Part shown: one piece after another, positions 1,496 to 49,591 of the stretch
Position numbering within the stretch: position 1 is the stretch's first letter
How the letters are laid out: each line of letters opens with the position of its first letter
Source: a phage
NCBI GenBank assembly: GCA_012646185.1
Contig: GCA_012646185.1_4706.1
Length of the DNA stretch: 64,000 bases
Direction: 5' to 3' (one strand)
Made by a program: the position numbers and the translations under genes
Notes under the pieces: generated by a model
The model's input: the letters and a program-made list of their open reading frames with translations, nothing else
The model's database searches: none
Told to the model about the DNA's origin: nothing

Positions 1496-1498
1496 GGA

Positions 1499-2338: not shown

Positions 2339-2363
2339 CCCTCCCCGCCTTATGCAGGGAGGG
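2339..2363 (-). terminator. GC-rich hairpin between co-oriented genes
   Basis: ccctccc - 11-nt loop - gggaggg, between the CDS ending at 2379 and the CDS starting at 2296. Confidence 0.45.
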
Positions 2364-2378
2364 CAGCCATTAAATGGA

Positions 2379-3017: not shown

Positions 3018-3032
3018 TACAGGCGTCCTCCT

Positions 3033-5233: not shown

Positions 5234-5275
5234 GGGGTATCTCCTACAAATGAAAAAGAACGTTAGGACGTATAA

Positions 5276-5299
5276 GGGAGGGAGGTTGCCCTCCCTCCC
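5276..5299 (-). terminator. GC-rich hairpin after the shell-protein gene
   Basis: gggagggagg-ttg-cctccctccc, with a U-rich stretch ~15 nt downstream on the minus strand. Confidence 0.5.
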
Positions 5300-5325
5300 G
5301 TCAGATTACATCGAACGTTCTTCCA

Positions 5326-7221
5326 TTAGAACAGGTTGAATGCCCCACCCATGTTGTTAACGCCAACATTCGGACGATCGCTACGTGCGTAGATGTTACC
5401 GGAGATGTTACCCAGACCACGAGCACGTGCTGCCATGTTACCACGAACAGCGGTACCTGCCAGATGCTGGATGTTCTCAGGACGGATGGTGAAGCCAGCA
5501 TCAGCCGCAGCTTCGATCAGCGCCTGCAGTGCTAACGGATCGAAGTCGTAACGCATTGCCCAGCCGGTTTGTTCCCAGCTACCAGACAGAACACGATCGA
5601 TGATTTCGTGACGAGCGACAACACGCTGAGACATCGTCATATCGGTACGGTCGAAGCTGTCTTCCCAAGCTTCTACGGTATCCGGGTTAGTGATGTTCAT
5701 CATGTACAGATCGTCCATATCACGAATATCGTGACGGTGACCATCCTGGTGGTTGTAGTAACCCAGCGGGATACGGTTACCGGTAGCGTAGACCAGCGGT
5801 TGGCCGTATTGATATTTCTTGCTGAAGCAACCCAGGGTAGTATCATCGAAGGCACGGTAAAGTGCTTTGTAGCCTTCAGAGACTTCCTGAACTTTACCTT
5901 CAACATTACCCGTATAGATCTTCTCAGCCGCCGGGATCATACGCAGCAGCCAGCTGTATTCGCCTTCTTCCGGTACGTCGATAGAAATCAGCAGAGACGG
6001 ATACAGAACCTGTTGCAGGAACTTGTAAATCTGCTCGTTGGTTTGCGTAGACAGATCCAGCGGTGCAGTCACTTCAGGATCCAGCACCATCGCCAGAGCA
6101 CCTGGGTTATGCGGACCAATACCACGAGCCGCGTTGCTGATTAAAGACTGTGCCCATGCCATGCCGCTGTTCAGCGTAGCGATGGTACCAATCAGACCCA
6201 GCACGAAGCTGTTCGGTGTGAACGCATCCAGCTCCAGCGGGTAAGCGCTGGTCATCACGTAACGCGGCTGGTATTGTACAGTCGGCGGTACCGGATAGCC
6301 GTTAACCAGAACAGGGCCTTGGTTGAAGGTCGGGTTCTGCGGGCTGTAGGTCAGGTCGATGTAACCGGTGGTGGCGACCAGACGCTGTTGACTATCGTAA
6401 TCGCTCATCGCTTGACGGATGCGGTTAGAGATAGTTACAGTGATGTCAGAACGCACAGGGTTACCAACAATATCACTGTCCTGCATACCGCTGGTGTTGT
6501 ACTGAACGCTGCTGATTGGCTGATCGCTTGCCATCATGCCCAGGTTGAACTGCGGCAGACCCAGTTTATCACCGAGACGGATTTCGATTGCGGTCTGGAT
6601 TGCGTTATCTGCAGCAGACAGCAGGGTGGTTGCCAGATGCGCAGATTCAGCGGTGATTTCATTGGTCACCACAGCCAGACCAGCGATACGAACAGTACCG
6701 TTAGACTTACCGCCAATAGCTGAATACATTGCCGCCATGACTTCGTTGATGAACGTACCGTTCAGGTTATCAACCCAGGTACGCGGTACCAGAATGTTAC
6801 CATGCGGACCTTGTTCTTCACGACGCGGCAGCGGAGCCAGACCAGCAACCAGCGGCAGGACGTAACCGAAGAAGTGGTTATGATCACCAACTTTTGCACC
6901 GCTCATAACAACCAGGGTCGGATACGGTACGCTGTACTGGTTCGGGTCAACCGCAACAAAGATGAAGTCGTCTTTGAACTGGGTATCTTCCAGATATTTC
7001 TCCATCAGACGACGGAGATTCAGTACCTGCTCGGAGCCGGTATTACGGCTGATACGACGGCTCAGTGTACGGTTGATCGTACGCATCGTATGAGTTACTT
7101 TAGGACGGTCGGCAAAATCTGCAGCGGTTTCCAGCGCCTCATCAGCACGTTGTGCGGTGCGGGTTTCAGCTGCACGAATTTCTACATTATCGTTACCGTT
7201 ATTACGTACGTCTAAGCCCAT
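5326..7221 (-). CDS. chmA: chimallin-like phage nucleus shell protein (putative)
   Basis: 631-aa ORF, strong AAGAGGAA SD, codon usage typical of an abundant protein, early-promoter motif ~70 nt upstream, immediately upstream of a beta-prime-like RNAP gene as in phiKZ (gp54-gp55); identification rests on size and synteny, not on a catalytic motif. Confidence 0.55.
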   Translation of the reverse strand: MGLDVRNNGNDNVEIRAAETRTAQRADEALETAADFADRPKVTHTMRTINRTLSRRISRNTGSEQVLNLRRLMEKYLEDTQFKDDFIFVAVDPNQYSVPYPTLVVMSGAKVGDHNHFFGYVLPLVAGLAPLPRREEQGPHGNILVPRTWVDNLNGTFINEVMAAMYSAIGGKSNGTVRIAGLAVVTNEITAESAHLATTLLSAADNAIQTAIEIRLGDKLGLPQFNLGMMASDQPISSVQYNTSGMQDSDIVGNPVRSDITVTISNRIRQAMSDYDSQQRLVATTGYIDLTYSPQNPTFNQGPVLVNGYPVPPTVQYQPRYVMTSAYPLELDAFTPNSFVLGLIGTIATLNSGMAWAQSLISNAARGIGPHNPGALAMVLDPEVTAPLDLSTQTNEQIYKFLQQVLYPSLLISIDVPEEGEYSWLLRMIPAAEKIYTGNVEGKVQEVSEGYKALYRAFDDTTLGCFSKKYQYGQPLVYATGNRIPLGYYNHQDGHRHDIRDMDDLYMMNITNPDTVEAWEDSFDRTDMTMSQRVVARHEIIDRVLSGSWEQTGWAMRYDFDPLALQALIEAAADAGFTIRPENIQHLAGTAVRGNMAARARGLGNISGNIYARSDRPNVGVNNMGGAFNLF

Positions 7222-7285
7222 TTGGGATTCCTCTTTTCTTAAACTTTATTAAATGACGTCATTGAATCAGCTTCTACTCGCTCAT

Positions 7286-7320
7286 TCACCTAGGTAATAT
7301 AACCCTGAAATTTTTTTCAA
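7286..7320 (-). promoter_or_regulatory. phiKZ-type early promoter motif (GAAAAAAA...TATATTAC on minus strand)
   Basis: Plus strand ctaggtaatataaccctgaaatttttttc; ~70 nt upstream of the chimallin-like start codon. Confidence 0.6.
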
Positions 7321-7475
7321 TATTGGTGTAACCACATTGAACGATATAAACCCCCAGGCGAACGCTGCCGAGAAGCAACATTCTTTCTACATATAATCAG
7401 GATATGTCTGTAAACTTTTACTTCTCTTATTGAGAGTAATGTCATATCCGTTTACTACCTTCTTACGGAGTTCGT

Positions 7476-8570
7476 ATGTTTCGTGTTTTAAATAACCTCC
7501 CGCGAACATCATCGGGTGTGCAACCCGTCCCTCAGAAAGACTATCTAATACGCGAAGTTCAAAGAAACCTACAGACAATCCAGAACCACTATCAAGGTTT
7601 TACCTTCGCGGTTCAGAGCGATCACATCCTTGCGTTGCTGCTCGCACAGCTCCCTATGAGATACGACATCTCAGTACAAACTTACTACGACATGATTCTC
7701 GATCTTACCCCAGAATTGGGTAATCGTGTCAAGTTGACAACATCAAGATACGCGGGTAAGTTATTCGACGGTGCTTTCTATCCGGGATTGCACGAAGCTA
7801 TTATCGCAACCGGTGAAAGTCGTCTTATTTCACGTGACGTTCTTGACAACTGGCGTAATTGGTCACCAGTTAGAATCGTGACGCACCCATACGCAAATCT
7901 TCGTTACATTCCTCTTCACCGAAAGCAGGTTGAAGATGGGCGAGGTTTTGCAGTCATTATGGTTGACGTACCTTTATTAGCGCTACAGTATCGAATGTGG
8001 TCTTTGATCATGGGTCATAACGTCGACGGTAAATGGGTGGTTAAAGAACCGGTTACAAGCTTCCTTGCGAGTTTTCCGTTGGTTAACGCATTATACTCAC
8101 ACAACGATGTTGTTATACGTAATCGTTGTTTGTGGGTATCTCCGGCTAAGAATCCACTCAAATCACCCATTTACGTTAACGACCTTGATAACGTATTCAG
8201 CCAAGTCGTTCTGTCCGTACAGCATCATTTATTACGAAGAAGACGAAGCTACACCGATATGCTTAAACAGATACCGAGTTTATACGGAGATCAGTACCAA
8301 GCAACCCGAATGGGTTACACCGTCGATCTTCGACAAACACGATGGGCAAGGGATCTGGGTTGTCTGTCATTATGGCAACAACTCGTCACATTGCAAAACG
8401 TATCTGAAAGCGTCGGGTTCAGCAGTCAAATCGATAACGACCTGTACCGTGCTGCCGACCGGAGTCTAAAAGAAGGTAACTGGGAATCCTCTCCGTTACC
8501 TGGCGATTTAAGACGTGAAGTTATCGCACAGGTTGCCGACCTCTTAAAAATTCTTCCCGCTGGTGCATAA
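7476..8570 (+). CDS. hypothetical protein
   Basis: 364-aa ORF with ACGGAG SD; the only plus-strand gene in this neighbourhood; ends at a bidirectional terminator. Confidence 0.65.
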   Translation: MFRVLNNLPRTSSGVQPVPQKDYLIREVQRNLQTIQNHYQGFTFAVQSDHILALLLAQLPMRYDISVQTYYDMILDLTPELGNRVKLTTSRYAGKLFDGAFYPGLHEAIIATGESRLISRDVLDNWRNWSPVRIVTHPYANLRYIPLHRKQVEDGRGFAVIMVDVPLLALQYRMWSLIMGHNVDGKWVVKEPVTSFLASFPLVNALYSHNDVVIRNRCLWVSPAKNPLKSPIYVNDLDNVFSQVVLSVQHHLLRRRRSYTDMLKQIPSLYGDQYQATRMGYTVDLRQTRWARDLGCLSLWQQLVTLQNVSESVGFSSQIDNDLYRAADRSLKEGNWESSPLPGDLRREVIAQVADLLKILPAGA

Positions 8571-8590
8571 TCACCTCCCTCTTCCCTTGC

Positions 8591-8620
8591 ATCCTCCCAA
8601 CCCGTAAGGGAAGGGAGGAT
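8591..8620. terminator. bidirectional terminator hairpin with GNRA (GUAA) tetraloop, contains conserved 24-mer
   Basis: atcctccc-aa-ccc-gtaa-ggg-aa-gggaggat between convergent CDSs; the 24-mer ctcccaacccgtaagggaagggag (8594-8617) recurs in reverse orientation at 58655-58678. Confidence 0.6.
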
Positions 8621-8636
8621 GGGGTGGTGGATTATG

Positions 8637-10790
8637 TTACTCTGCGGTTTCTTGCTTCGGTAAATAACTTGCTGCAATGTCTTGGGCTAACAATGTATTG
8701 TTTTTATTCGAGATGAAAATACCGTAACTTTCCATTAACGCGTAATACGAACGCACGAGCGTAGAGATCAATCGACGAATATCCATACCTTGAATAAAGA
8801 TATCGGGAAGCCCGGAGGCTTCGATCACCGGTAATGGTATCGTTAAGTTGCTTATCGTTTTCTTATCGTTACGTACAATCCAATCACGGAAACGTTGTTG
8901 TAACCCTTTATCCTCCCAGGAATCAATCCAATCGTTAAGAAGCGTTTTGTTCTTCGTCGCCAACGGCACACGAACCCCAACATAGGGTGGTTCCTGGCAA
9001 TGGCCGTACGATTGAGCAAACACCTCTTCCCACATATCGTAAGACTGTTTCGTTACTGCAACATGCGGTTTCACTTTAACACGTGTTAAGAAATCGGGAT
9101 CACCTCGTTTCATGGACTCAACGATTTCGTTTTCTAACGAGATAATATCATCAAGAACCAATCGAATGCTGATCTTCTCATTACGTAACAGCTTATCCAT
9201 GATACCACACATCATGCGTTCAACACGTTTGACGATCATTTTTGGTGCTGACGCATCACGCATAACAGGACCTTTCAATTCCAGCTTCGGTGGATTGATA
9301 GGAACCCCTTCACGCATGGTCATGTAACCGTAATAGTTTTTACCCATCGAGGTTAACGACAGAATCAAGAACATATATTCGTTCTTCATTTCCATTACGT
9401 ACATATGCTCTTTCGCTACACCGATATTACCAGAACACATCGCCATCAGATGAACCGTAATCTGCGTAACCAGATAGATAAGCGTATTTGCTAAGCGCGT
9501 CGAAACTGGATTGATCTCCATATTTCCAAATCGCCACTGAACCCACTCCTGGCAGGTAAACACCGTCGAGTCGGTATCAGACAACACACCCACTTCACGG
9601 ATTGCTGATGGGAAAGCATAAACGCCAGCCGGTTGGTTCTCGGTACGCCAGAACGCCATAATCAAATCAGCATAGCTTTGAATACGCTGTAGCATTAATT
9701 TTGTCGTTGCTGCAGTAAGACGATAACCAAGCTCATTTCCTTTTTCTAGCGCTACGTAAATCGCTTCCCCGTTCAAGAACTCCGTGCATTGTGCTGTAAT
9801 CCAAGCGACCGTGTTGTTATCCATGGAAGCAATAATGGCTTTAGCCTCTTCCATCGTTTCAACCGGTTCGGATGCCAGTTCACATAACGAGTCAAGAAAA
9901 TCTCGAACAAATTCAGGATTAAGCTCACGTAACGAGTACAGGTTATTGCTGTACATGTAGCAGGCACGTTCCAGTGGGGTTAAACCAGTAATTAACTCCC
10001 GGATAATCAGTTCTTTCTCTGGGTCGAAAGTATATCGATGCAAGCATTTCGATACGTTAGCCCAAACCTCTTCCGGTGTAGGGTAATGTAATTTGTATTT
10101 TACCATTACCTGTTCAATGGCTTTACGATCGCTGTTACGGACAATACTTACGATGTTTTCGATTGCGATATCACAATCGTAATAATGGAAATTGCCCGCA
10201 AGGAAGCGTTCGTTGTTCGCATTGGCTGAACCTGAAGCACAGCGACATGTTGTCGTTAAACTTGGATGCGCGATCGGATTATAAAAAGGGTTAAACTTGG
10301 ACGCCTGGGTTCCTGACAAACTGTTGTTATCTAACTTGGTGTTGGTTTGTCGTTTATCGTGTAACTCAGCTTCATCTTTACGTCCGTGTGCTTGTGCTAT
10401 CGACATTTGTTTCTTTTGTTTCTTACGCAACTTACCGTTTTCAACCGCGAAGTCGCTTAGCACACTGGAGCGTGTCTCACGTGGGTAACAGTTAGCCCAC
10501 ACCGGCGTGATAATTAAATTATTTTCTTTAATATCGTTGAAGTATTGGCTGAACTTGATGACTTCTTTTTCTCGATTTCCTTCGGTACGCTGTGTTAATA
10601 CAAGACAGTCGGGATCAACCATCCCGTATTTTCCACCAGGACGAACCGTTTCAAGAACAAACTGCAACGCTTCCTGCTGTGATATCCCACGCATGCGCAT
10701 TAAGAACAGGGTATAATCCTGTACCGCTTCTTTGGTCATATCCAACGTACGACCATATCCGTTTTCATCGTAAAAGAACGGATTTTCCAT
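8637..10790 (-). CDS. hypothetical protein (717 aa)
   Basis: Long ORF with TGGAGGA SD; contains an SDTDS peptide but no other polymerase or P-loop motif, so no function is called. Confidence 0.7.
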   Translation of the reverse strand: MENPFFYDENGYGRTLDMTKEAVQDYTLFLMRMRGISQQEALQFVLETVRPGGKYGMVDPDCLVLTQRTEGNREKEVIKFSQYFNDIKENNLIITPVWANCYPRETRSSVLSDFAVENGKLRKKQKKQMSIAQAHGRKDEAELHDKRQTNTKLDNNSLSGTQASKFNPFYNPIAHPSLTTTCRCASGSANANNERFLAGNFHYYDCDIAIENIVSIVRNSDRKAIEQVMVKYKLHYPTPEEVWANVSKCLHRYTFDPEKELIIRELITGLTPLERACYMYSNNLYSLRELNPEFVRDFLDSLCELASEPVETMEEAKAIIASMDNNTVAWITAQCTEFLNGEAIYVALEKGNELGYRLTAATTKLMLQRIQSYADLIMAFWRTENQPAGVYAFPSAIREVGVLSDTDSTVFTCQEWVQWRFGNMEINPVSTRLANTLIYLVTQITVHLMAMCSGNIGVAKEHMYVMEMKNEYMFLILSLTSMGKNYYGYMTMREGVPINPPKLELKGPVMRDASAPKMIVKRVERMMCGIMDKLLRNEKISIRLVLDDIISLENEIVESMKRGDPDFLTRVKVKPHVAVTKQSYDMWEEVFAQSYGHCQEPPYVGVRVPLATKNKTLLNDWIDSWEDKGLQQRFRDWIVRNDKKTISNLTIPLPVIEASGLPDIFIQGMDIRRLISTLVRSYYALMESYGIFISNKNNTLLAQDIAASYLPKQETAE

Positions 10791-10851
10791 AAATCCTCCA
10801 AAAGTTATTTAGTCTGTCTACATCATCTCGTATATCTGTTAAAAAAGAAGG

Positions 10852-10864
10852 ACGGCATAAAAAA
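10852..10864 (-). promoter_or_regulatory. late-promoter-like motif TTTTTTATGCCGT after hairpin
   Basis: Plus strand acggcataaaaaa adjacent to hairpin 10866-10893; ~65 nt upstream of the ATG at 10790. Confidence 0.5.
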
Positions 10865-10865
10865 G

Positions 10866-10893
10866 AACCGATCCAGCCGAAGCCAGATCGGTT
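10866..10893 (-). terminator. intrinsic terminator hairpin
   Basis: aaccgatc...gatcggtt inverted repeat followed on the minus strand by a U-tract. Confidence 0.5.
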
Positions 10894-11088
10894 AAAAAGG
10901 ATAATAACTGACAGAAAGATATCGATGATGTTCGTGAAACAAGATCTTCTCTCGTGTACAATGATGCTAGATCAGAGGGAGGTTGTAACACGAGAGGTGG
11001 TCCGCCAAAGAAGGAATAAAAACACGAACCTATCTTATTTCACTGATGGCACTAACCACTCAAAATATATAGTACTGTATGTAAAAGT

Positions 11089-11502
11089 TTACTGATTAAT
11101 CAAGTCGTTAGCAACAATCTTGGTGTAACCCGCCTGATTAAGAATTTGATTAATTTTCGTCACGTCGGTCGCATCCTCAATAACGATGCTGGGTTTATAG
11201 ATCAGCGTCTTGGTAACGACGATTGTACTCTCCTTAATCCAAGGAATCCCTAGAATCACATACTCGCCGTCGGCTGTAATGACCTCGACGTAATTGTATT
11301 TCGTCGGATCGTTCGGTACACTAGACGGGAGCCGGGAATAAATCTGTTGGTGAATGGCATCTACATCACGACCGTTACGTACAGCTGTGCGATAATTGTA
11401 CACAGCGCTAATTTCTACTCCGTTGAAGTTAACCCCAAGTTCTGGGGCGTACACATCAAAACTCACAACAGAGCCAATCTTTTCTAAATCAGAAGCTGGC
11501 AT
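11089..11502 (-). CDS. hypothetical protein
   Basis: 137-aa ORF; AAGGAT SD 8 nt before the ATG. Confidence 0.65.
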   Translation of the reverse strand: MPASDLEKIGSVVSFDVYAPELGVNFNGVEISAVYNYRTAVRNGRDVDAIHQQIYSRLPSSVPNDPTKYNYVEVITADGEYVILGIPWIKESTIVVTKTLIYKPSIVIEDATDVTKINQILNQAGYTKIVANDLINQ

Positions 11503-11513
11503 AATAGCATCCT

Positions 11514-12035
11514 TTATTTAAAAATGTATTCATATCCGAAAGTCGTCGCTGACCAGACCCGGATAGATGATAGTGTTCCGCCACGATAAAACGTTTTTGT
11601 GAATTCCATATCCTGGACAACACGATAATAAACACGTCCGATAATACGCACGATAAGGTTTCGTGATAACGATCTCTCCTCGCAGTATTCATCGATAAAG
11701 TCATCGTCGATATCCGATAAGACAACATCCGCAATTTCTTGCAGTAGATTCCTCATCAGCATCTGCCTTCCTTCGGTACCCCACCCAGACAAACAGTAAT
11801 CGTCTTCTGCCTGACTATAGATGTCGTTAACCGCCTGTTCGAGCAGTTGCTCAAGATAGTAGTCATCGCGTTTTATAACGTGGCGACGGCGCTCAGTGGC
11901 GTATTTTTCCATCCTGTGTTTCTCTTGTTCGGCGTATGTATTAACGACGCCACAGTCTTTTCTGGATCGTCCCACAATGCACGACGAAAACTGGATACTA
12001 CCATAACGGTAGGATAGATTTGTACAACCTCCCAT
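11514..12035 (-). CDS. hypothetical protein (start uncertain)
   Basis: ORF-track coordinates; N-terminal part overlaps ORF 11873..12361 in another frame; an internal Met (MEKYATERRR, near 11912) is a possible true start. Confidence 0.45.
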   Translation of the reverse strand: MGGCTNLSYRYGSIQFSSCIVGRSRKDCGVVNTYAEQEKHRMEKYATERRRHVIKRDDYYLEQLLEQAVNDIYSQAEDDYCLSGWGTEGRQMLMRNLLQEIADVVLSDIDDDFIDEYCEERSLSRNLIVRIIGRVYYRVVQDMEFTKTFYRGGTLSSIRVWSATTFGYEYIFK

Positions 12036-12361
12036 CCGTAACGATGTGCGTTAGTCGTACGTCCGACATTGAACAGACATAGCTGATTTAAGAAACAGAG
12101 CTGCATCTTCGTAAACAACACCATGTCTTCACGTTTAACGTATCCGAGGATATACGCATTCTCGAACGCCTCGCGTGACAAGACGGGACGATTAAGATAC
12201 CGTAACGCTAATACCAACAACGTTGTTATGCGCAACGGATCTTCTGGGTCATTCATGGTACTCAGCTCTGCTTGTAACCAGTCAGGGATAGTAACCGTCA
12301 GACGATAGGTATCTGTTCCACGATCAACCACATTCAATGTTGAAAAAGGCAACATATCCAT
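11873..12361 (-). CDS. hypothetical protein (start/end uncertain)
   Basis: ORF-track coordinates; part of a chain of mutually overlapping minus-strand ORFs in alternating frames. Confidence 0.4.
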   Translation of the reverse strand: MDMLPFSTLNVVDRGTDTYRLTVTIPDWLQAELSTMNDPEDPLRITTLLVLALRYLNRPVLSREAFENAYILGYVKREDMVLFTKMQLCFLNQLCLFNVGRTTNAHRYGWEVVQIYPTVMVVSSFRRALWDDPEKTVASLIHTPNKRNTGWKNTPLSAVATL

Positions 12362-12899
12362 GAATTCCTTCTAGCTCGAGGTTGTTCTCGCCGGTCTTCG
12401 GTAATAACCCACTGGCCGTTAACATCTGTGTCATCGAGTAGTCAAAGCACGGGAATATCAGGTTAACGGTTTCCTGGATCGCGTCAACATAACTATAAAT
12501 GGCTTCATAATACTCACCGTCATGATCTACGCTAACCAGTTCCTGACACAGTTCTTCGCTTATCATTTCATATACCGGTGGATACCACGATTGAAATGGT
12601 CGCTGCATACGTAACGACCAGTACTCGTACGTTGTATACTGAAGCACGTCATAAGCCGATACGTTAATGCGGTCGAAGAAAGCATACTTGTCCATATGCT
12701 GGTACAACATCGCCAACACGGTTTCCAAGCACACCGATATCCGCACGCCGTCATCTTTCCCGTTAAGAAAATTAGGTTTCTGCCGATAACGCACAAATGC
12801 CGACGGCCTTGATTGCATTATTCCACCACCAACCATAACGTCATACTCGTATCTAACGTAAAATTGAAATGCCACCAATCTTCTACACGTGGAATCCAC
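12324..12899 (-). CDS. hypothetical protein (start uncertain)
   Basis: ORF-track coordinates; ATG at 12818 (MQSRPS...) overlaps the upstream stop (taATG) and is a plausible true start. Confidence 0.45.
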   Translation of the reverse strand: MDSTCRRLVAFQFYVRYEYDVMVGGGIMQSRPSAFVRYRQKPNFLNGKDDGVRISVCLETVLAMLYQHMDKYAFFDRINVSAYDVLQYTTYEYWSLRMQRPFQSWYPPVYEMISEELCQELVSVDHDGEYYEAIYSYVDAIQETVNLIFPCFDYSMTQMLTASGLLPKTGENNLELEGIHGYVAFFNIECG

Positions 12900-13501
12900 G
12901 TACGAAGGATTTGGTTAACTTCGCTTCGCATCACCGATAAACGACAACGAAAATCGAACTTCTCATCGTGGCCGTAGTCTTCATGCATGAAAACTTCATC
13001 CAAAACGAACTCAAGTTGCATGTCGACATCGCGGCCAGAGATATTCCGTTTGTACAAATACAGTTCAATCGTGTCGTAAAGCAACGTATGAATATCATAA
13101 TTTCCGTTCGGTGAGAAATAAGGTAATCGCTCATCGAGCATCGAAAACAGATATTCACTGTAGTTTAATAACGGGATGATGTATCGACGCCCTGTCTGTG
13201 GTGTGCGAATATGTATCGAAACCTGACTTGGGCGCGGAATAACCGACGGCTTAGAATCGTCTCTCTGAAATTGCTCTAAAGATCGCAACAAAGGTGGCCG
13301 CATTGTAACTCTCCAACGCCCAATTGTAAGGCCCTTCCAACATGTGTTCCCATACGTGAATAAACTCACTACCGAAGACAGGCTCCAGCGCCATGGTGAG
13401 ATTCGTAAGTTCTGACGCAGCCGCATGGTAAGCATCAACATGTCTTTCCATTGACGGATCGTCTTCATTGAAAATACGTTCTGTGTCGCCAGCCCGCTCA
13501 A
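12818..13501 (-). CDS. hypothetical protein (start uncertain)
   Basis: ORF-track coordinates; protein-like sequence begins only in the C-terminal half; first ATG after the upstream stop is at 13141. Confidence 0.4.
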   Translation of the reverse strand: MSGLATQNVFSMKTIRQWKDMLMLTMRLRQNLRISPWRWSLSSVVSLFTYGNTCWKGLTIGRWRVTMRPPLLRSLEQFQRDDSKPSVIPRPSQVSIHIRTPQTGRRYIIPLLNYSEYLFSMLDERLPYFSPNGNYDIHTLLYDTIELYLYKRNISGRDVDMQLEFVLDEVFMHEDYGHDEKFDFRCRLSVMRSEVNQILRTWIPRVEDWWHFNFTLDTSMTLWLVVE

Positions 13502-13880
13502 TAAGTTCGGTAATGAGATCTGTCCATGTCTCGTGACACGTCATCATTTCCTGTTCTCGACTTAGTATGCCGATGTCTGCGTGGACGCTGGACTCGAACC
13601 GGTCTAAAAGGACCCGAAGAACGTGCACCTTGTCGATGTATTTCACCGTTATCCAGGAAAGCGGTTGCCACCGACTCAGCATCCATCCGGTACTCGGGAA
13701 CCCCAAACTCATATAGTACGGGTTGCACCGGACCGAAGACGGAGCGACGTTGTTTAAATCGTTCCTTAAGGGCAAGGCCTTGTTTAATATAAACGGGTTC
13801 ATTGGCGAGCTGTTCCGCTTTTCGTTTTGCGTGAGCCAATCGAAGTTCTTCCAATTGCCCAAGCCATTCAAATTGTTCAT
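13251..13880 (-). CDS. hypothetical protein (start uncertain)
   Basis: ORF-track coordinates; first ~110 codons are W/R-rich and overlap the 13498..14475 frame. Confidence 0.4.
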   Translation of the reverse strand: MNNLNGLGNWKNFDWLTQNEKRNSSPMNPFILNKALPLRNDLNNVAPSSVRCNPYYMSLGFPSTGWMLSRWQPLSWITVKYIDKVHVLRVLLDRFESSVHADIGILSREQEMMTCHETWTDLITELIERAGDTERIFNEDDPSMERHVDAYHAAASELTNLTMALEPVFGSEFIHVWEHMLEGPYNWALESYNAATFVAIFRAISERRF

Positions 13881-14475
13881 CTGTTAGCTCCTGGGGACGT
13901 TCAACAATCGCGCCAGACGGGCAGATATTGATCGTAATGTTAATTGACGGCATCGCCATCACTCGAGGATTACTATTACGTACGCGGACAACATGTTCGG
14001 TTGCTGATTTACGATCGACGCAATACTCTGTTTCTTGGAACTCAAATGCTTTTAACGGCGTTGGTTTTGTTTGATGTTTAGGAACGCGGCCAAGATCAAC
14101 AATATAGGCATAATCGCACACACGTTCTATTCCGTAAATACGGTTATCCGACCAGTTCTTACCAAACAGCTTGTTGTGATGATAAGACAGATATTCGGTT
14201 ACCATACCCTGGACAACATCGAAGTCTTCTCGAAATTCAGGTTGGTACCAAATCGGACCGAGAATATCTGCGAACGATTCATGACGATATCGAGGATCAT
14301 GTCGAGTCCAGGTCATTCTCTGATTAAGATCGAAATCCACCAACAACTCGGTTAATTGCAATTTTTCCTTCGGAGAAAGCTGGCGTTGATGATGCAAACT
14401 CAGACAATCGATAAGCGGTAATGAAACCCACGATGCTAATGTGTACAAATCGATCCTGGCTAATCTCTTGGTCAT
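13498..14475 (-). CDS. hypothetical protein
   Basis: 325-aa ORF; Arg-rich C-terminal tail overlaps the next frame, so a frameshift or overlap is possible. Confidence 0.5.
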   Translation of the reverse strand: MTKRLARIDLYTLASWVSLPLIDCLSLHHQRQLSPKEKLQLTELLVDFDLNQRMTWTRHDPRYRHESFADILGPIWYQPEFREDFDVVQGMVTEYLSYHHNKLFGKNWSDNRIYGIERVCDYAYIVDLGRVPKHQTKPTPLKAFEFQETEYCVDRKSATEHVVRVRNSNPRVMAMPSINITINICPSGAIVERPQELTDEQFEWLGQLEELRLAHAKRKAEQLANEPVYIKQGLALKERFKQRRSVFGPVQPVLYEFGVPEYRMDAESVATAFLDNGEIHRQGARSSGPFRPVRVQRPRRHRHTKSRTGNDDVSRDMDRSHYRTY

Positions 14476-14566
14476 ACTCTTTTCCTAAGTCCCCATTGTT
14501 TATACACACGATATCTGGGAATAGTTAAAATATACGGCGTAAAACGAAGCAGGAGAGTTTCTGACG

Positions 14567-14887
14567 TCATTTTCTCCCTCTTCGAATACTACCGATACCT
14601 CTTTCGTCTAAGACGTCCCAGGCACGCTTTATTTCATCCTCCGTTGCTCTGGTATCTGGAGGGACAACCATAACACAGTCATGGAATGGCCAATGTGTAG
14701 GTCTGGGGTTAGCGAACAAATCATCCCATTCAAATGTCCATTCTTTCTTTGAGCGATTGTAGTAGAGCGTAAGGTACGTGTTGGTATACGCTGGATAACC
14801 ATGCATCACTTCAATATCCTTACGATCTTGCCGTTCCTGATTCCAATCGTTAAACCGCTTTCTTATTTTCTCCCACCACTTTCCCAT
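14567..14887 (-). CDS. hypothetical protein
   Basis: 106-aa ORF; TAGGAGAAAG SD; TTTTATGCCGT motif ~17 nt upstream. Confidence 0.6.
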   Translation of the reverse strand: MGKWWEKIRKRFNDWNQERQDRKDIEVMHGYPAYTNTYLTLYYNRSKKEWTFEWDDLFANPRPTHWPFHDCVMVVPPDTRATEDEIKRAWDVLDERGIGSIRRGRK

Positions 14888-14899
14888 GCTTTCTCCTAC

Positions 14900-14910
14900 A
14901 CGGCATAAAA
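14900..14910 (-). promoter_or_regulatory. late-promoter-like motif TTTTATGCCGT after hairpin
   Basis: Plus strand acggcataaaa adjacent to hairpin 14910-14931. Confidence 0.45.
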
Positions 14911-14931
14911 GCCTGCCCCGAAGGACAGGCT
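14910..14931 (-). terminator. hairpin (agcctg-10 nt-caggct)
   Basis: Inverted repeat between CDSs 14941..15141 and 14567..14887; no strong U-tract. Confidence 0.35.
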
Positions 14932-14940
14932 CGATAGAAC

Positions 14941-15141
14941 TTAACGACCATCCAATTTCAATGAAGGATGGTTGACGATATGTGCGTGTTTTGCTGGGTC
15001 ATATAGCTGATATGGAAAATAGCCATGCCATTGACGGCCTTGGCATTTCGTACACAGGAACTGACCAACACCTTGTCGATTCTCGTAAGCGAGTTCGGTA
15101 CTATCAACATGACCGCAACGTTCGCAGATAAACAGCGACAT
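14941..15141 (-). CDS. small zinc-ribbon protein (CxxC...CxxC)
   Basis: 66-aa ORF MSLFICERCGHV...CTKCQG with two CxxC pairs; the overlapping ORF 14958..15179 is rejected. Confidence 0.5.
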   Translation of the reverse strand: MSLFICERCGHVDSTELAYENRQGVGQFLCTKCQGRQWHGYFPYQLYDPAKHAHIVNHPSLKLDGR

Positions 15142-15178
15142 AGCGCATCCCCATTCACTTGAACCTTTTGGTTCGGCA

Positions 15179-16159
15179 TTAGAAAAGCAAGAAACCGCTA
15201 TTCTTCGCTTCCGCTACAGTTTCGTCACCAACTTTCGGTGCCTGTTGACGTGCGTTACGATGTTCGATGTAACGTTTCGCTTCGTCAGCGATTTGTTTGA
15301 TAATACCCCCTAAACGATCGGTACTTAAAACAAACGACGTCGCTTCACGAATCGGGCTGCTTTCAGGCACAAAACCATCACAGCTGTAAATAGCGCTAAC
15401 ACCCATGACTTTTGTCGCGTCTTTCGGATAAAGCGTACAGAAAGCAATCGGGCTATCGTTCTCTTTCGTCCAATCGTATCCCATGAACGTATTCAGTTCG
15501 GTGATCGTTGGTTCCAAACCGGTAACACGTGGATGGTTTAAGAAGTTTTCCAGGTCGGCGCTGTCAAGACGACGGTTCTCGCCAGAAAACAGAACACAAA
15601 GCTGGCTAATAACAACCTGCACGTCCAGGTTGACATCCTGCTCCGATTTCCCATTTTCGCCATTCATGTGATAGCTAACAATCACTGGACGTTTCAACCC
15701 TTCTGCAGCCGCCATCAGTCCCTTGAAGGTGCGATCGGCGTTGATCGTCTGGCGCTCATCATCGAACGAGGCAACGATACAACACACCACACGTTCACCG
15801 CGTTCCAGCAGGTTAGCAACCAACGCAGGACCGGCAACAGAACCTGAACCACCGCTCAAACTAAAGACCACGATATTAAATTTACCGGGCGTACGCTTAT
15901 TCAGAATACCCGGGATTTGTGAACAGATCAGTTCAGCGTTCTCATCACGCTTCTTACCAGAACCGTCTAACTCACGACCGGCTGCATCTTTAAAGATGTA
16001 AATATGATCGTCACCCAGTGTGCTATCGCGTAGGTTAGCGCGGCTGGTATCGACATACGTCATGCTGTGTAATCCTTTCGCGACTTCGCCTTCAAATGCT
16101 GAGCCGATTTCGCCACCACAACCACCGACAGCCCAAATATGTACTTGGTTCTCTTGCAT
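15179..16159 (-). CDS. phuZ: PhuZ-like phage tubulin/FtsZ-family GTPase
   Basis: 326 aa; N-terminal VGGCGGEIG (tubulin T1-loop-like) and SLSGGSGS (T4-loop GGGTGSG-like signature); TAGGAG SD. Confidence 0.75.
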   Translation of the reverse strand: MQENQVHIWAVGGCGGEIGSAFEGEVAKGLHSMTYVDTSRANLRDSTLGDDHIYIFKDAAGRELDGSGKKRDENAELICSQIPGILNKRTPGKFNIVVFSLSGGSGSVAGPALVANLLERGERVVCCIVASFDDERQTINADRTFKGLMAAAEGLKRPVIVSYHMNGENGKSEQDVNLDVQVVISQLCVLFSGENRRLDSADLENFLNHPRVTGLEPTITELNTFMGYDWTKENDSPIAFCTLYPKDATKVMGVSAIYSCDGFVPESSPIREATSFVLSTDRLGGIIKQIADEAKRYIEHRNARQQAPKVGDETVAEAKNSGFLLF

Positions 16160-16223
16160 GTGAACTCCTAATTTAATATGTATTTAACGCACAATGAATC
16201 TTTCTTTGCTAAAGGGGTGACCC

Positions 16224-17066
16224 ATGGGTGCTATTGACTACAGTGTAGATCGTATCTGTCGTACAATACCGGCAGATATCCTACAGTATTGCTATATCGA
16301 TCGTTACGACTGGCGTAATCGCTATCCTCGTTCCGTAGAAGACATCATTACCGATTGGGTAATCCGTAAACGGGTTATCGGCGACATCGATATCTACGGG
16401 GGGCTACAAACCGTTATCCCCCTTGATGATGCCGGTGTCACTATCGAAGAAGTCACCATTAACTGTTATGTTTTCCACATTCCGTTGGAAGCCACACAGG
16501 GACGTTATATCACGTCCGCATTATCCATTATTTCAGGGAGCGTGAACAACTACGGAATAAACTATAACGGGCAATGGGGTGCTTTCAACCAAACCCAGTT
16601 TCAACGTCAGCTTTGTGGGTGGAACCCCGCAAGCAACACGTTACAGCAAGGGATGAACGCGTTCGGTCCCATGAACGTTCTTAGTACAGCCAACGTTGAT
16701 ATCATCGCCCCTAACACCATCATGGTGAACAACGTCACGCCTGTACAATTTCCCCTGAGCCTACGCTGTTTCCTTGCCCACGATCCGGAACTTACCAACC
16801 TCAGCATGGAGGTTTGGAACGACTTCTACAAACTCTGTTTATACGCCACGCAAAGTGACATCTACAACAGAACCGTTATCCGTCTCGATAGAGGTGTTAC
16901 AGCACAAGGACAAGAAGTCGGTGCATTCAAGGAATACATCGATCGCTTTGCCGATGCTGAAAACACATATCAGGAATTCCTGAACGAAACGTGGGCTGGC
17001 GTTGCCGCCTGGAACGATCCGCAAACTAAACGTCGCGCCATTCGACTACAAACCGGTTACTTCTGA
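16224..17066 (+). CDS. hypothetical protein
   Basis: 280-aa plus-strand ORF divergent from phuZ; AAAGGGGTGA SD. Confidence 0.65.
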   Translation: MGAIDYSVDRICRTIPADILQYCYIDRYDWRNRYPRSVEDIITDWVIRKRVIGDIDIYGGLQTVIPLDDAGVTIEEVTINCYVFHIPLEATQGRYITSALSIISGSVNNYGINYNGQWGAFNQTQFQRQLCGWNPASNTLQQGMNAFGPMNVLSTANVDIIAPNTIMVNNVTPVQFPLSLRCFLAHDPELTNLSMEVWNDFYKLCLYATQSDIYNRTVIRLDRGVTAQGQEVGAFKEYIDRFADAENTYQEFLNETWAGVAAWNDPQTKRRAIRLQTGYF

Positions 17067-17593
17067 TTAACGACAGCTTCCTCCCTCGGAGTTTTCGAGG
17101 GAGGTATTTGCCGTTTGAACACTTTCAGCATGTTCGCAAAATCAGCAGCAATAATACAGGCCGAGGTTGATAGCTTATTACTGAAAATGAGATCGTCCGG
17201 TAAACAATCGAACTGAATACCGTATTGCGTCTTTGTCTCATCAACGATCAATGACGGTGTCGATCTTGTCTTCGCGATGTCGGTGATATACAAACGTAGA
17301 AATAATTCACCGTCTTCGCTATCCATAAAACGATAAGCGTTACCAGAAAACGCAACATGCGGCGTAACGATAAATTGAACACGATCGTCGGTCGGATGGA
17401 TATTTAACCAACGTTCGATATCATTACTACTCACATTTCGCATATTTACTACGGTAAAAGCAAATAGCGTATCGTGATGTTTGGAATAATGCAGCACGTA
17501 CGCCGCACCTTTCTTTTTGTGAATCCCTTCAATGTATTCTATTGTCGTATAGCCAGATTTATATAGCTTTACTTGCGGTTTATCACTCATCAT
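17057..17593 (-). CDS. hypothetical protein
   Basis: ORF track 17057..17674 trimmed to the ATG at 17593, which overlaps the upstream TGA stop (ATGA arrangement). Confidence 0.55.
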   Translation of the reverse strand: MMSDKPQVKLYKSGYTTIEYIEGIHKKKGAAYVLHYSKHHDTLFAFTVVNMRNVSSNDIERWLNIHPTDDRVQFIVTPHVAFSGNAYRFMDSEDGELFLRLYITDIAKTRSTPSLIVDETKTQYGIQFDCLPDDLIFSNKLSTSACIIAADFANMLKVFKRQIPPSKTPREEAVVNQK

Positions 17594-49529: not shown

Positions 49530-49591
49530 GGAGACACTCCTCTTTACCACCACCGGCTGCGGCGGTATCATCTGAACACACGAGAGACGTA

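What the first reader, a model, noticed from the sequence alone, without database searches (positions are those of the whole stretch)
5326..16159. Chimallin-like shell gene and PhuZ tubulin gene in the same window: hallmark pair of a nucleus-forming phage
The 631-aa early, abundant protein sits beside the non-virion beta-prime-like RNAP gene, and 8 kb away lies a 326-aa protein with tubulin/FtsZ GTP-binding loops (VGGCGGEIG, SLSGGSGS). Together with split multisubunit RNAP genes this supports a phiKZ-like lifestyle. The shell-protein call is by size and synteny only and should be confirmed.
Basis: partly seen in the sequence, partly recalled or inferred. Interest (0 to 1): 0.4.

Follow-up and report, generated by a model that had tools for sequence, protein, structure and literature searches.

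The report
Known phage-nucleus shell and tubulin genes
The window comes from a close relative of the E. coli jumbo phage Goslar, and the two flagged genes are its already well-studied nuclear-shell protein (chimallin) and PhuZ tubulin, so the call is correct but ordinary; the more unusual thing is next door, where the phage RNA-polymerase gene is split by two tandem self-splicing introns inside its catalytic motif.

Summary
Both ORFs exist exactly as described. The 631-aa ORF (5326..7221, -) matches Pfam Chimallin_Phikzvirus (94.9 bits, cut-off 27) and PHROG 'nuclear shell protein'. It is 97.9% identical to Goslar chimallin, whose structure is solved (PDB 7SQT). The 326-aa ORF (15179..16159, -) matches PHROG 'tubulin PhuZ' (1e-66) and solved phiKZ and 201phi2-1 PhuZ structures. 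It differs from the near-identical solved chain 9PM9 at two residues and keeps both GTP-binding loops and catalytic Asp202. The window is collinear with Goslar at about 96% DNA identity. The adjacent 434-aa ORF matches phiKZ nvRNAP beta-prime gp55.

Two nuances apply. PhuZ is common but not universal in nucleus-forming phages. The 434-aa 'beta-prime' ORF is only exon 1.

Side finding: two paralogous HEG-less group I introns (350 and 357 nt) flank an 18-nt micro-exon encoding DFDGDA of the catalytic NADFDGD motif. Related metagenomic Goslar-like contigs carry one to three introns at five sites within about 27 nt. The virion RNAP beta-prime-like gene is interrupted at the same motif. An intron at this motif is already present in phiKZ; the multiplicity appears undescribed.

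The parts
5326..7221 (-). Chimallin (ChmA), major phage-nucleus shell protein, 631 aa
   Evidence: Pfam PF25677 94.9 bits (cut-off 27), residues 19-596. phrog_4795 'nuclear shell protein' E 5.6e-54. PDB 7SQT Goslar chimallin aligned 1-631, E = 0. 97.9% identical to Goslar YP_009820873.1, 13 substitutions, none after residue 488.
15179..16159 (-). PhuZ, phage tubulin/FtsZ-family GTPase, 326 aa
   Evidence: phrog_4733 'tubulin PhuZ' E 1.1e-66 over the full length. PDB 9PM9 E 5e-219; phiKZ PhuZ 3ZBP E 1.6e-28; 201phi2-1 PhuZ 3R4V/3J5V E 6e-15. 99.4% identical to the Goslar protein (H89R, E229D), with D202 kept and the motifs at residues 11 and 100. Pfam Tubulin 30.1 bits, below the cut-off of 33.
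3983..5233 (-). nvRNAP beta-prime N-terminal subunit, exon 1 (417 codons, ends ...KGYNA); the mechanical 434-aa ORF 3929..5233 reads on into intron A
   Evidence: phrog_2987 E 5e-115. PDB 7OGP_A phiKZ gp55 E 1.6e-60. Exon end defined by allele comparison and the P1 U-G pair.
3633..3982 (-). Group I intron A (350 nt, no ORF)
   Evidence: Rfam RF00028 full-length match, 23.1 bits, E 0.0056, below the gathering score. Present alone in L004 and L130, absent from Goslar. Covariation with paralogue B.
3615..3632 (-). 18-nt micro-exon GACTTTGACGGTGATGCC = DFDGDA (core of the catalytic NADFDGD motif)
   Evidence: Splicing restores ...GYNADFDGDAMNNH..., which aligns to phiKZ NADFDGDQLN.
3258..3614 (-). 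Group I intron B (357 nt, no ORF), about 72% identical to A
   Evidence: Rfam RF00028 full-length match, 27.4 bits, E 3e-4, below the gathering score. Absent from L004, L130 and L137, which read straight through. Covariation.
3033..3257 (-). nvRNAP beta-prime N-terminal subunit, exon 3 (74 codons plus stop; MNNHIVPD...), corresponding to Goslar 'hypothetical protein' gp185
   Evidence: It aligns to the C-terminal part of phiKZ gp55/56.1.
8637..10790 (-). Divergent family B DNA polymerase, 717 aa
   Evidence: Pfam PF20286 681.7 bits. phrog_2927. 99.7% identical to Goslar. Same DNAP - shell - nvRNAP order as in phiKZ gp50/gp54/gp55.
7476..8570 (+). Conserved jumbo-phage protein of unknown function, 364 aa (Goslar gp245 homologue), divergent from chimallin
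   Evidence: phrog_3938 E 1e-52. 99.2% identical to Goslar.
11089..15141 (-). Run of nine small or medium ORFs of unknown function between the DNA polymerase and PhuZ (Goslar gp243 to gp235 homologues)
   Evidence: Only two have PHROG matches (phrog_3235, phrog_5903), both of unknown function. Collinear with Goslar.
16224..17066 (+). DUF7484 protein, 280 aa, divergent from PhuZ
   Evidence: Pfam PF24302 293.9 bits. 100% identical to Goslar.
45901..49571 (-). Virion-RNAP beta-prime-like gene. Exon 1 is 49571..48063 (...GLGGD). The 1982-nt intron carries an HNH ORF (47987..46515) and a group I core (46530..46144). Exon 2 is 46080..45901 (FDGDTVSV...).
   Evidence: phrog_2986 E 3e-161 and HNH phrog_59. 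Rfam RF00028 56.3 bits, above the gathering score. Junction. tblastn of the spliced junction peptide is contiguous in 170 of 188 phage records.
41551..45897 (-). Large RNAP subunit, 1448 aa
   Evidence: phrog_3148 1389 bits. No PDB sequence match.
63024..63698 (-). Small RNAP subunit, 224 aa
   Evidence: phrog_3233 E 1e-65.

Best explanation
The window is a 64-kb stretch of a Goslar-like (genus Goslarvirus, family Chimalliviridae) E. coli jumbo phage. ORF 5326..7221 encodes chimallin (ChmA). Its protomers link through an N-terminal segment and two C-terminal segments into a flexible square lattice. That lattice forms the phage nucleus, which encloses the replicating phage DNA and keeps host nucleases out. 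ORF 15179..16159 encodes PhuZ, a tubulin-family GTPase. In Goslar its dynamic filaments form a vortex around the nucleus and rotate it, and GTP hydrolysis depends on Asp202. The phage's own split multisubunit RNA polymerases transcribe the genome. The non-virion beta-prime N-terminal subunit lies directly downstream of chimallin and has to be assembled from three exons by splicing of two group I introns. Shown here: the identities, the motifs, the synteny and the exon structure. Shown elsewhere, for Goslar proteins that are 98-99% identical: shell lattice structure, PhuZ vortex and rotation. Inferred: that this particular phage behaves the same way, and that both introns splice.
For: Chimallin: Pfam PF25677 94.9 bits against a cut-off of 27; phrog_4795 E 5.6e-54; full-length alignment to PDB 7SQT, and weaker matches to phiPA3 PhuN 8FNE and to two further chains deposited as 'Chimallin', 7SQQ and 8IGG; 97.9% identity to Goslar gp189, with no change in residues 489-631. 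PhuZ: phrog_4733 E 1.1e-66; 9PM9, 3ZBP, 3R4V, 3J5V; 2 substitutions against Goslar, D202 and both G-loops kept. Genome: megablast gives 98.2% identity over 5000-17000 and blastn about 96% over the whole window, collinear except at the intron locus. The gene order DNAP - ChmA - nvRNAP beta-prime is the same as in phiKZ and PhiPA3. Function in Goslar: PMC9365700 (lattice, NTS/CTS, 2.3-A protomer) and PMC9891218 (GFP-PhuZ vortex; D202A reduces rotation). Spliced beta-prime: 497 aa with NADFDGD, and the alignment to 7OGP_A rises from 208.5 to 255 bits and extends to residue 476.
Against: Nothing contradicts the assignment. Four weak points remain. The generic Pfam Tubulin hit is below its gathering score (30.1 against 33 bits). 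Expression timing and abundance cannot be read from DNA. The chimallin carries 13 substitutions relative to the characterised protein, seven of them at residues 439-488, and their effect is untested. The two introns score below Rfam's gathering threshold (23 and 27 bits against 50), and intron B has C rather than the usual U at the 5' splice site, so efficient splicing is inferred rather than shown.
Confidence: 0.97

Rival explanations
1. The 631-aa protein is a capsid or other virion structural protein that happens to have chimallin's size and position. This is the refutation condition the first reader named.
For: None found. Size and synteny alone would allow it.
Against: The only Pfam and PHROG families hit are chimallin / nuclear shell. 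The best PDB match is Goslar chimallin over all 631 residues; the other three are phiPA3 PhuN and two further chains deposited as 'Chimallin'.
Confidence: 0.01
2. The 326-aa protein is a tubulin-family protein of another kind (a TubZ-like DNA-segregation protein or an FtsZ-like division protein) rather than a nucleus-positioning or nucleus-rotating PhuZ.
For: The generic Pfam Tubulin hit is weak (30.1 bits). The PDB depositors of 3ZBP and 9PM9 use neutral names.
Against: There is a full-length match to the PhuZ-specific PHROG (E 1e-66). All five PDB sequence matches are jumbo-phage proteins: 9PM9, phiKZ gp39 and three entries carrying the 201phi2-1 PhuZ sequence. The protein is 99.4% identical to the Goslar protein shown by microscopy to form the vortex that rotates the nucleus (PMC9891218).
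Confidence: 0.02
3. The 434-aa ORF and the 79-aa ORF are separate, unspliced polypeptides, making a further 'split' of the beta-prime subunit. On this reading elements A and B are dead intron relics or plain spacer.
For: Both Rfam hits are below the gathering score. Exon 3 begins with its own ATG. RefSeq annotates the Goslar pieces as separate genes. One study saw no splicing reads for the phiKZ introns under its conditions (PMC10914365).
Against: Without splicing the catalytic DFDGD triad, encoded only in the 18-nt micro-exon, would be missing from an essential enzyme. Splicing restores NADFDGD in frame in all seven allele types. The solved phiKZ nvRNAP chain is the fused gp55/gp56.1 product. 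In 259 of 290 phage records one match covers at least 80% of the query, and every non-Goslar hit listed is a single uninterrupted piece spanning the motif. A and B keep 98.5% of structure cells paired, with 29 of 91 pairs changed on both sides, against 1-3 in the slid controls. P1 places the U-G pair exactly at the inferred splice site.
Confidence: 0.03
4. The tandem A+B arrangement is an assembly artefact, produced by joining two co-occurring alleles through the roughly 65-nt identical 3' ends of A and B.
For: In the window, A and B share an identical 3' stretch of about 65 nt, which could confuse an assembler.
Against: The same A - micro-exon - B arrangement (788 nt between landmarks) occurs in four other independently assembled contigs (L132, L134, L136, L138). 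Two of them are about 237 kb long, and their A copies are only 97.1% identical to the window's. The isolate genome of Goslar has the analogous X(+HNH) - micro-exon - B arrangement.
Confidence: 0.02

Closest known systems
Goslar chimallin ChmA (gp189 in MK327938 numbering; YP_009820873.1 / HOV27_gp246; PDB 7SQT-7SQV)
   Same: Same length (631 aa), 97.9% identical, same genomic position and neighbours, and an identical C-terminal 143 residues.
   Different: 13 substitutions (G38D, Q39R, R81Q, A167S, A177V, T338S, K439N, E443K, R445Q, I447V, V461T, L474Q, H488Y). Their effect is untested.
Goslar PhuZ (gp201 in the literature; HOV27_gp234); PDB 9PM9/9PMK is a near-identical chain whose source organism the deposit name does not state
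   Same: 326 aa, 99.4% identical to the Goslar gene product, with both GTP-binding loops and catalytic D202 kept. The Goslar protein forms a vortex that rotates the nucleus (PMC9891218).
   Different: Two conservative substitutions (H89R, E229D).
phiKZ and 201phi2-1 shell and tubulin (phiKZ gp54 and gp39, PDB 3ZBP; 201phi2-1 gp105 and gp59, PDB 3R4V)
   Same: Same families and the same DNAP - shell - nvRNAP beta-prime gene order.
   Different: Distant in sequence: Goslar chimallin is 19.3% identical to 201phi2-1 chimallin (PMC9365700) and Goslar PhuZ 27% identical to 201phi2-1 PhuZ (PMC9891218). The Pseudomonas phages build a bipolar PhuZ spindle, whereas Goslar builds a vortex.
phiKZ gp55 - gp56 (HNH) - gp56.1: group I intron in the nvRNAP beta-prime gene
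   Same: An intron in the same gene and the same catalytic motif. phiKZ exon 1 ends ...APN and exon 2 starts ADFDGDQLN. The intron scores 75.6 bits against Rfam, and its 3' end resembles those of A, B and C.
   Different: phiKZ has one intron with a homing endonuclease gene, inserted at N|A. The window has two HEG-less introns, at NA|D and DGDA|M, enclosing an 18-nt micro-exon. Related contigs have up to three introns.
PhiPA3 gp210 mobile intron in the vRNAP beta gene (10.1101/2023.09.30.560319)
   Same: An HNH-carrying group I intron in a conserved acidic motif of a jumbo-phage RNAP subunit. It has been shown to act in competition between phages.
   Different: A different subunit and site (beta, after two conserved Asp residues). 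The introns at the window's nvRNAP locus carry no endonuclease gene.

Membership tests
Chimallin (ChmA, Pfam PF25677) | Sequence match to the family profile above the curated threshold, over most of the length | tested here: met
   94.9 bits against a cut-off of 27, residues 19-596 of 631. phrog_4795 E 5.6e-54, residues 20-629.
Chimallin (ChmA, Pfam PF25677) | Protomer fold with N- and C-terminal domains plus the NTS, CTS1 and CTS2 tail segments that link protomers | tested here: met
   Gap-free alignment of residues 1-631 to the solved Goslar protomer 7SQT. There are no substitutions in residues 489-631, the C-terminal part; CTS1 and CTS2 lie at the C-terminus (residues 590-631 in the 201phi2-1 protein, PMC9365700). 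No structure was predicted because the solved relative is 97.9% identical.
Chimallin (ChmA, Pfam PF25677) | Self-assembly into a square lattice that encloses phage DNA during infection | not testable with these tools
   Shown for Goslar chimallin by cryo-ET and cryo-EM (PMC9365700). Inferred here from identity.
Chimallin (ChmA, Pfam PF25677) | Encoded in a Chimalliviridae genome alongside nvRNAP and vRNAP subunits and the divergent DNA polymerase | tested here: met
   Collinear with Goslar. Same order as in phiKZ.
PhuZ (phage tubulin, tubulin/FtsZ superfamily) | Tubulin/FtsZ GTPase domain | tested here: inconclusive
   Pfam PF00091 E 7.4e-7 but 30.1 bits, below the gathering score of 33. The generic model alone does not certify membership.
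PhuZ (phage tubulin, tubulin/FtsZ superfamily) | Full-length similarity to characterised PhuZ proteins | tested here: met
   phrog_4733 'tubulin PhuZ' E 1.1e-66, residues 1-323 of 326. phiKZ PhuZ 3ZBP E 1.6e-28, 201phi2-1 PhuZ 3R4V/3J5V E 6e-15, 9PM9 E 5e-219.
PhuZ (phage tubulin, tubulin/FtsZ superfamily) | Glycine-rich nucleotide-binding loops (T1 GGxGxxxG and the T4 signature) and the catalytic Asp needed for GTP hydrolysis | tested here: met
   VGGCGGEIG at residue 11 and SLSGGSGS at residue 100, aligned to GGAGFRIG and GGASGS of phiKZ PhuZ. D202, the residue mutated in Goslar PhuZ(D202A), is present. The T1/T4 loop names come from general knowledge of tubulins.
PhuZ (phage tubulin, tubulin/FtsZ superfamily) | [quoted passage not shown] | not testable with these tools
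   Shown for Goslar PhuZ (PMC9891218). Inferred here from 99.4% identity.
Group I intron (Rfam RF00028), for elements A (3633..3982) and B (3258..3614) | Match to the family covariance model at the curated score | tested here: not met
   Full-length (model positions 1-253) but weak: A 23.1 bits (E 0.0056) and B 27.4 bits (E 3e-4) against a gathering score of 50. The sister elements at the same locus score 44-57 bits (X, D) and 30-31 bits (C).
Group I intron (Rfam RF00028), for elements A (3633..3982) and B (3258..3614) | Conserved secondary structure supported by covariation | tested here: met
   On 8 distinct A/B copies, 98.5% of cells are paired and 29 of 91 pairs change on both sides (1-3 in the slid controls; 0 of 500 shuffles reach the observed value). 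Caveat: only about three lineages are represented, and the structure was derived from these same sequences.
Group I intron (Rfam RF00028), for elements A (3633..3982) and B (3258..3614) | P1 helix with a U-G pair at the 5' splice site, and a terminal G at the 3' end | tested here: inconclusive
   A has U-G at the inferred site and a terminal G. B has a terminal G but C-G instead of U-G, in the window and in four other A+B contigs (GATGCC|AGAG). Goslar-type B has U-G.
Group I intron (Rfam RF00028), for elements A (3633..3982) and B (3258..3614) | Precise removal restores an intact, conserved reading frame; presence/absence alleles exist | tested here: met
   The spliced 497-aa product carries NADFDGD and aligns with phiKZ gp55/56.1. 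The A-only, X-only and A+B alleles define both boundaries of B and the 3' boundary of A.
Group I intron (Rfam RF00028), for elements A (3633..3982) and B (3258..3614) | Self-splicing activity | not testable with these tools
   Needs in-vitro transcription and splicing, or cDNA from infected cells.

The most novel reading that the evidence does not exclude
The finding itself holds nothing new. The most novel reading the evidence allows concerns its neighbour. In Goslar-like coliphages the roughly 27 nt that encode Y-NADFDGD-A of the non-virion RNAP beta-prime subunit are a hotspot of group I intron invasion, with at least five insertion sites. Natural alleles carry one, two or three introns. 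The window has A+B around an 18-nt micro-exon, and other contigs have C+X+B with two 13-nt micro-exons. The catalytic Mg-binding triad is therefore encoded on a micro-exon that exists in the mRNA only after two ribozymes have each spliced correctly. This could couple production of the enzyme for the nvRNAP-dependent phase of transcription to splicing, and could underlie intron-mediated competition between co-infecting Goslar-like phages. I found no description of this multiplicity.
Probability: 0.5. Interest if true: 0.45.

Novelty: already known. Interest (0 to 1): 0.15.

Why it matters
For the finding as given, the value is in annotation. It identifies the window as a Goslarvirus-like nucleus-forming phage and transfers experimentally grounded functions to two genes. 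It shows that variants of the model phage Goslar (about 96% DNA identity) are common in metagenomes. It also gives a small set of natural substitutions in chimallin, seven of them at residues 439-488, that could be mapped onto the solved lattice.

The side observation matters more. It corrects the gene models of both beta-prime-like RNAP subunits, here and in the Goslar reference record, where the exons are not joined. It also offers a natural series of presence/absence alleles (one to three introns, with or without HNH) in a genetically tractable E. coli phage. That series could be used to study intron homing, micro-exon splicing and intron-based competition inside a phage nucleus.

Tried and rejected
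1. tRNA genes as the explanation for the repeated peptide strings in overlapping ORFs at 3043-3775: ARAGORN found none. The repeats are the paralogous introns A and B.
2. Rfam at gathering threshold found only the vRNAP intron. The two nvRNAP introns appeared only in the E-value mode.
3. A 14-nt core pattern (ATTCCGTGAATTGC) scanned against IMG/VR returned more than 120 loci. Of the 120 fetched, only L028 (Goslar itself) matched any query element by blastn; L015, which carried two matches 338 nt apart, did not. No further family members were gained.
4. PDB sequence searches with the 1448-aa, 505-aa and 490-aa proteins found nothing. Their assignment to the virion RNAP set therefore rests on PHROG families and on the annotation of homologues.
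5. Searches for papers citing 9PM9 found nothing informative.
6. Searches for NADFDGD with group I intron and phage, and for Goslar with intron, found no description of the tandem introns. The library is incomplete, so this is not proof of novelty.
7. Sigma-70-like promoters are not enriched in 3000-17200 (19 found, 24.2 expected), so nothing can be said about chimallin's promoter from that scan.
8. Structure prediction and fold search were not run, because solved structures 98-99% identical exist.
9. The capsid or structural-protein alternative, the assembly-artefact alternative and the unspliced split-subunit alternative were considered and rejected (see the rival explanations).

Full report
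1. OBSERVATION

Both ORFs named in the finding exist with exactly the stated limits. A 631-aa ATG ORF lies at 5326..7221 (-) and a 326-aa ATG ORF at 15179..16159 (-), 7,958 bp apart. The quoted strings VGGCGGEIG and SLSGGSGS occur once each in the 326-aa protein, at residues 11 and 100. A 434-aa ORF (3929..5233, -) lies 92 bp downstream of the 631-aa gene.

2. WHAT THE TWO GENES ARE

The 631-aa protein hits one Pfam family only, PF25677 Chimallin_Phikzvirus (94.9 bits, gathering score 27, residues 19-596). It also hits one PHROG only, phrog_4795 'nuclear shell protein' (E 5.6e-54). Against the PDB it aligns without gaps over residues 1-631 to chimallin of phage Goslar (7SQT; E = 0). It aligns more weakly to phiPA3 PhuN (8FNE) and to two further chains deposited as 'Chimallin', 7SQQ and 8IGG.

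The 326-aa protein matches phrog_4733 'tubulin PhuZ' over its full length (E 1.1e-66). It also matches the solved PhuZ structures of phiKZ (3ZBP, E 1.6e-28) and 201phi2-1 (3R4V and 3J5V, E 6e-15). It is nearly identical to chain 9PM9. The generic Pfam Tubulin domain is detected (E 7.4e-7) but scores below its gathering threshold (30.1 against 33 bits). The PhuZ call therefore rests on the PhuZ-specific evidence.

3. WHERE THE WINDOW COMES FROM

Megablast of 5000-17000 finds only Escherichia phage vB_EcoM_Goslar, at 98.2% identity and 100% coverage. A local blastn of the whole window against Goslar 158000-237307 shows two collinear blocks. Window 1-3606 aligns to Goslar 164589-168193 (95.9%), and window 3984-64000 aligns to 169661-229733 (96.2%).

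Protein identities to Goslar are as follows:
- chimallin 97.9% (13 substitutions, none after residue 488)
- PhuZ 99.4% (H89R, E229D)
- DNA polymerase 99.7%
- gp245 homologue 99.2%
- DUF7484 protein 100%

The exact chimallin sequence occurs on five metagenomic contigs. The neighbouring 212-aa protein occurs on many more, including contigs of 237-241 kb. Goslar-like phages are therefore common in sequenced samples, and this window is one more variant.

4. HOW IT WORKS

This section is established for Goslar and inferred here by identity. Goslar chimallin (gp189 in the literature, YP_009820873.1, the gene called HOV27_gp246 in RefSeq) assembles into tetramers. These are joined by an N-terminal segment and two C-terminal segments into a flexible square lattice that forms the nuclear shell. 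A 2.3-A protomer structure and in-situ tomography are published (PMC9365700).

Goslar PhuZ (gp201 in the literature) forms a vortex of filaments around the nucleus. The D202A mutant, designed to block GTP hydrolysis, abolishes the vortex and strongly reduces nucleus rotation (PMC9891218). D202 is present in the window's protein.

The gene order DNA polymerase - (other genes) - chimallin - nvRNAP beta-prime is the same as in phiKZ gp50/gp54/gp55 and in PhiPA3 gp47/gp53/gp54. One qualification applies to 'hallmark pair'. Chimallin is a core gene of the family, but PhuZ is not universal, since Erwinia phage Asesino lacks it (PMC11724907).

5. THE RNAP GENES

The 434-aa ORF matches phiKZ gp55, the N-terminal beta-prime subunit of the non-virion RNAP (7OGP_A, E 1.6e-60).

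Other RNAP genes in the window are a 1448-aa protein (phrog_3148), a 505-aa protein (phrog_2986) and a 224-aa protein (phrog_3233). The 1448-aa and 505-aa proteins have no sequence match to any solved chain, the phiKZ nvRNAP chains included; the 224-aa protein was not searched. Homologues of the 505-aa protein are annotated as virion-associated RNAP subunits. 'Split multisubunit RNAP genes' is thus confirmed. The assignment to the virion set is by homology only.

6. WHAT THE NEIGHBOUR REALLY IS (outside the finding's coordinates but adjacent to it)

The only place where the window and Goslar are not collinear lies just downstream of the beta-prime ORF. Goslar has an Rfam-annotated group I intron plus an HNH endonuclease gene (gp186) there. 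The window has 377 different bases instead.

Rfam in E-value mode finds two tandem full-length group I intron matches in the window, at 3686..3992 (23.1 bits, E 0.0056) and 3310..3671 (27.4 bits, E 3e-4). Both are below the gathering score of 50. The two elements, A and B, are about 72% identical to each other.

Comparison with related contigs fixes the boundaries. L004 and L130 have A only, and there A's 3' end is followed by GACTTTGACGG(T/C)GACGCA|ATGAAC, with no interruption between the micro-exon and exon 3 sequences. L137 has only the Goslar-type intron X. L005 and L133 have X+B. Goslar has X(+HNH)+B.

For the window this gives:
- exon 1: 5233..3983, ending ...KGYNA
- intron A: 3982..3633 (350 nt)
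- micro-exon: 3632..3615, GACTTTGACGGTGATGCC = DFDGDA
- intron B: 3614..3258 (357 nt)
- exon 3: 3257..3033, starting MNNHIVPD... (Goslar's 'hypothetical protein' gp185)

The spliced 497-aa product contains the universal beta-prime catalytic motif NADFDGD. It aligns to the fused phiKZ gp55/gp56.1 chain from residue 21 to residue 476, with the score rising from 208.5 to 255 bits. In 259 of 290 phage records one match covers at least 80% of the query, and every non-Goslar hit listed is a single uninterrupted piece spanning the motif.

RNAalifold was run on eight distinct A/B copies, each with six exon bases attached. Unprompted, it predicts a P1 helix whose U-G pair sits exactly at the inferred 5' splice site. 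On that structure 98.5% of cells are paired and 29 of 91 pairs change on both sides. The slid controls give 1-3 such pairs, and none of 500 shuffles reaches the observed value. Two caveats apply: only about three lineages are represented, and the structure was derived from these same sequences.

The A+B arrangement is not an assembly artefact. It recurs in four independent contigs whose A copies differ from the window's by 3%. Neither intron carries an ORF.

7. THE HOTSPOT

More alleles exist. L129 and L131 carry three introns (C+X+B) with two 13-nt micro-exons, ATAATGCAGATTT and CGACGGGGATGCT. L135 carries C+D with an 11-nt micro-exon. That makes five insertion sites within about 27 nt: after Tyr codon nucleotide 1, after NA, after NAD, after Phe codon nucleotide 2, and after DGDA. 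Seven allele types are seen among 15 sequences (the window, Goslar and 13 contigs).

phiKZ's known gp55/gp56 intron (Rfam 75.6 bits) sits in the same motif at yet another position, N|ADFDGD, and has a similar 3' end. An intron in this motif is therefore not new. Introns in phiKZ gp55 and gp180 are mentioned in the literature (PMC11512511; PMC10914365). What I could not find described is the tandem or triple arrangement with micro-exons and the allele polymorphism.

One oddity stands out. In all five A+B sequences, intron B has C rather than U before the 5' splice site (GATGCC|AGAG), giving a C-G pair where group I introns normally have U-G. Goslar-type B has U.

The last 16 nt of exon 1 carry five synonymous differences from Goslar, after 87 identical bases. 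This pattern would be expected if each intron type travels with its own exon flank.

8. THE VIRION RNAP GENE SHOWS THE SAME THEME

The 505-aa ORF ends ...GLGGD followed by two read-through codons and a stop. After an HNH ORF (47987..46515) and the Rfam-certified intron core (46530..46144, 56.3 bits), the sequence resumes at 46080 with FDGDTVSV... for 59 codons. A peptide spanning the predicted junction is contiguous in 170 of 188 phage records. Exon 2 has no annotation in the Goslar record.

9. VERDICT

The system is already known and well characterised, so interest in the finding itself is low. The adjacent tandem-intron micro-exon is a new variant of a known kind and is recorded as a side finding.

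Noticed in passing
window 3033..5233 (-): The nvRNAP beta-prime N-terminal gene is a three-exon gene. Two paralogous, ORF-less group I introns (A at 3982..3633 and B at 3614..3258, about 72% identical) flank an 18-nt micro-exon (3632..3615) that encodes DFDGDA of the catalytic NADFDGD motif. The mechanical 434-aa ORF is exon 1 plus read-through.
   Followed up: yes
L004, L005, L129-L138, and Goslar L001:1900-5000: The same roughly 27 nt of coding sequence is an intron hotspot in Goslar-like phages. There are five insertion sites and seven allele types: A; X; A+B; X+B; X(HNH)+B; C+D; C+X+B. Up to three introns occur together, with micro-exons of 11-18 nt. phiKZ has a sixth site in the same motif (L139:9180-10560).
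   Followed up: partly
window 3615 (last base of the micro-exon) and the same position in L132, L134, L136, L138: Intron B of the A+B alleles has C instead of the near-universal U before the 5' splice site, giving a C-G rather than a U-G pair in P1. Goslar-type B has U. Whether this slows or regulates splicing is unknown.
   Followed up: partly
window 45901..49571 (-): The virion-RNAP beta-prime-like gene is also interrupted in its DFDGD motif. Exon 1 ends ...GLGGD at 48063 and exon 2 starts FDGDTV at 46080. The 1982-nt intron between them carries a 490-aa HNH endonuclease ORF and an Rfam-certified group I core. Both beta-prime-like genes of the phage are therefore hit at the same catalytic loop.
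   Followed up: partly
Goslar NC_048170.1 167622-170910 and 211577-215264 (L001, L002): The reference annotation does not join these exons. gp247 is a truncated 423-aa 'RNA polymerase beta subunit', gp185 is a 'hypothetical protein', the second intron (B) is not annotated, and exon 2 of the vRNAP gene has no feature at all.
   Followed up: partly
window 3983..3998 against Goslar: Five synonymous differences are packed into the last 16 nt of exon 1, directly before the intron site, after 87 identical bases. Each intron type seems to come with its own exon flank, which would fit co-conversion, IGS pairing or endonuclease-site immunity.
   Followed up: no
3' ends of introns A, B and C, phiKZ gp55 intron (L139:~10500-10535), intron D (L135:~3715-3748), window 46081..46115: Otherwise different introns share a 3'-terminal module: a hairpin with a (G/C)GTAGCGA-type loop followed by GAAGA or GAACA and the terminal G. 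In the window, A and B are identical over their last ~65 nt, which suggests gene conversion between the tandem copies.
   Followed up: no
window 5326..7221 (-), protein residues 439-488: Seven of the 13 chimallin substitutions relative to Goslar cluster within 50 residues (K439N, E443K, R445Q, I447V, V461T, L474Q, H488Y). The C-terminal 143 residues are invariant.
   Followed up: no
window 5326..5346 and 15179..15199 (C-termini of the two proteins): Chimallin and PhuZ both end in a similar short hydrophobic tail (...MGGAFNLF and ...KNSGFLLF). This may well be coincidence.
   Followed up: no
window 3000..17200: Sigma-70-like promoter matches are not enriched (19 found, 24.2 expected from shuffles). 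The 254-bp divergent intergenic region upstream of chimallin (7222..7475) is AT-rich (36% GC). A strong terminator-like hairpin lies at 10893..10866 (-), where Goslar annotates one.
   Followed up: no
L129-L138: Goslar-like genomes are frequent in public metagenomes. The 212-aa neighbour protein is listed in 56 blocks of the collection, including near-complete contigs of 237-241 kb and one NCBI assembly (GCA_044649845.1).
   Followed up: no
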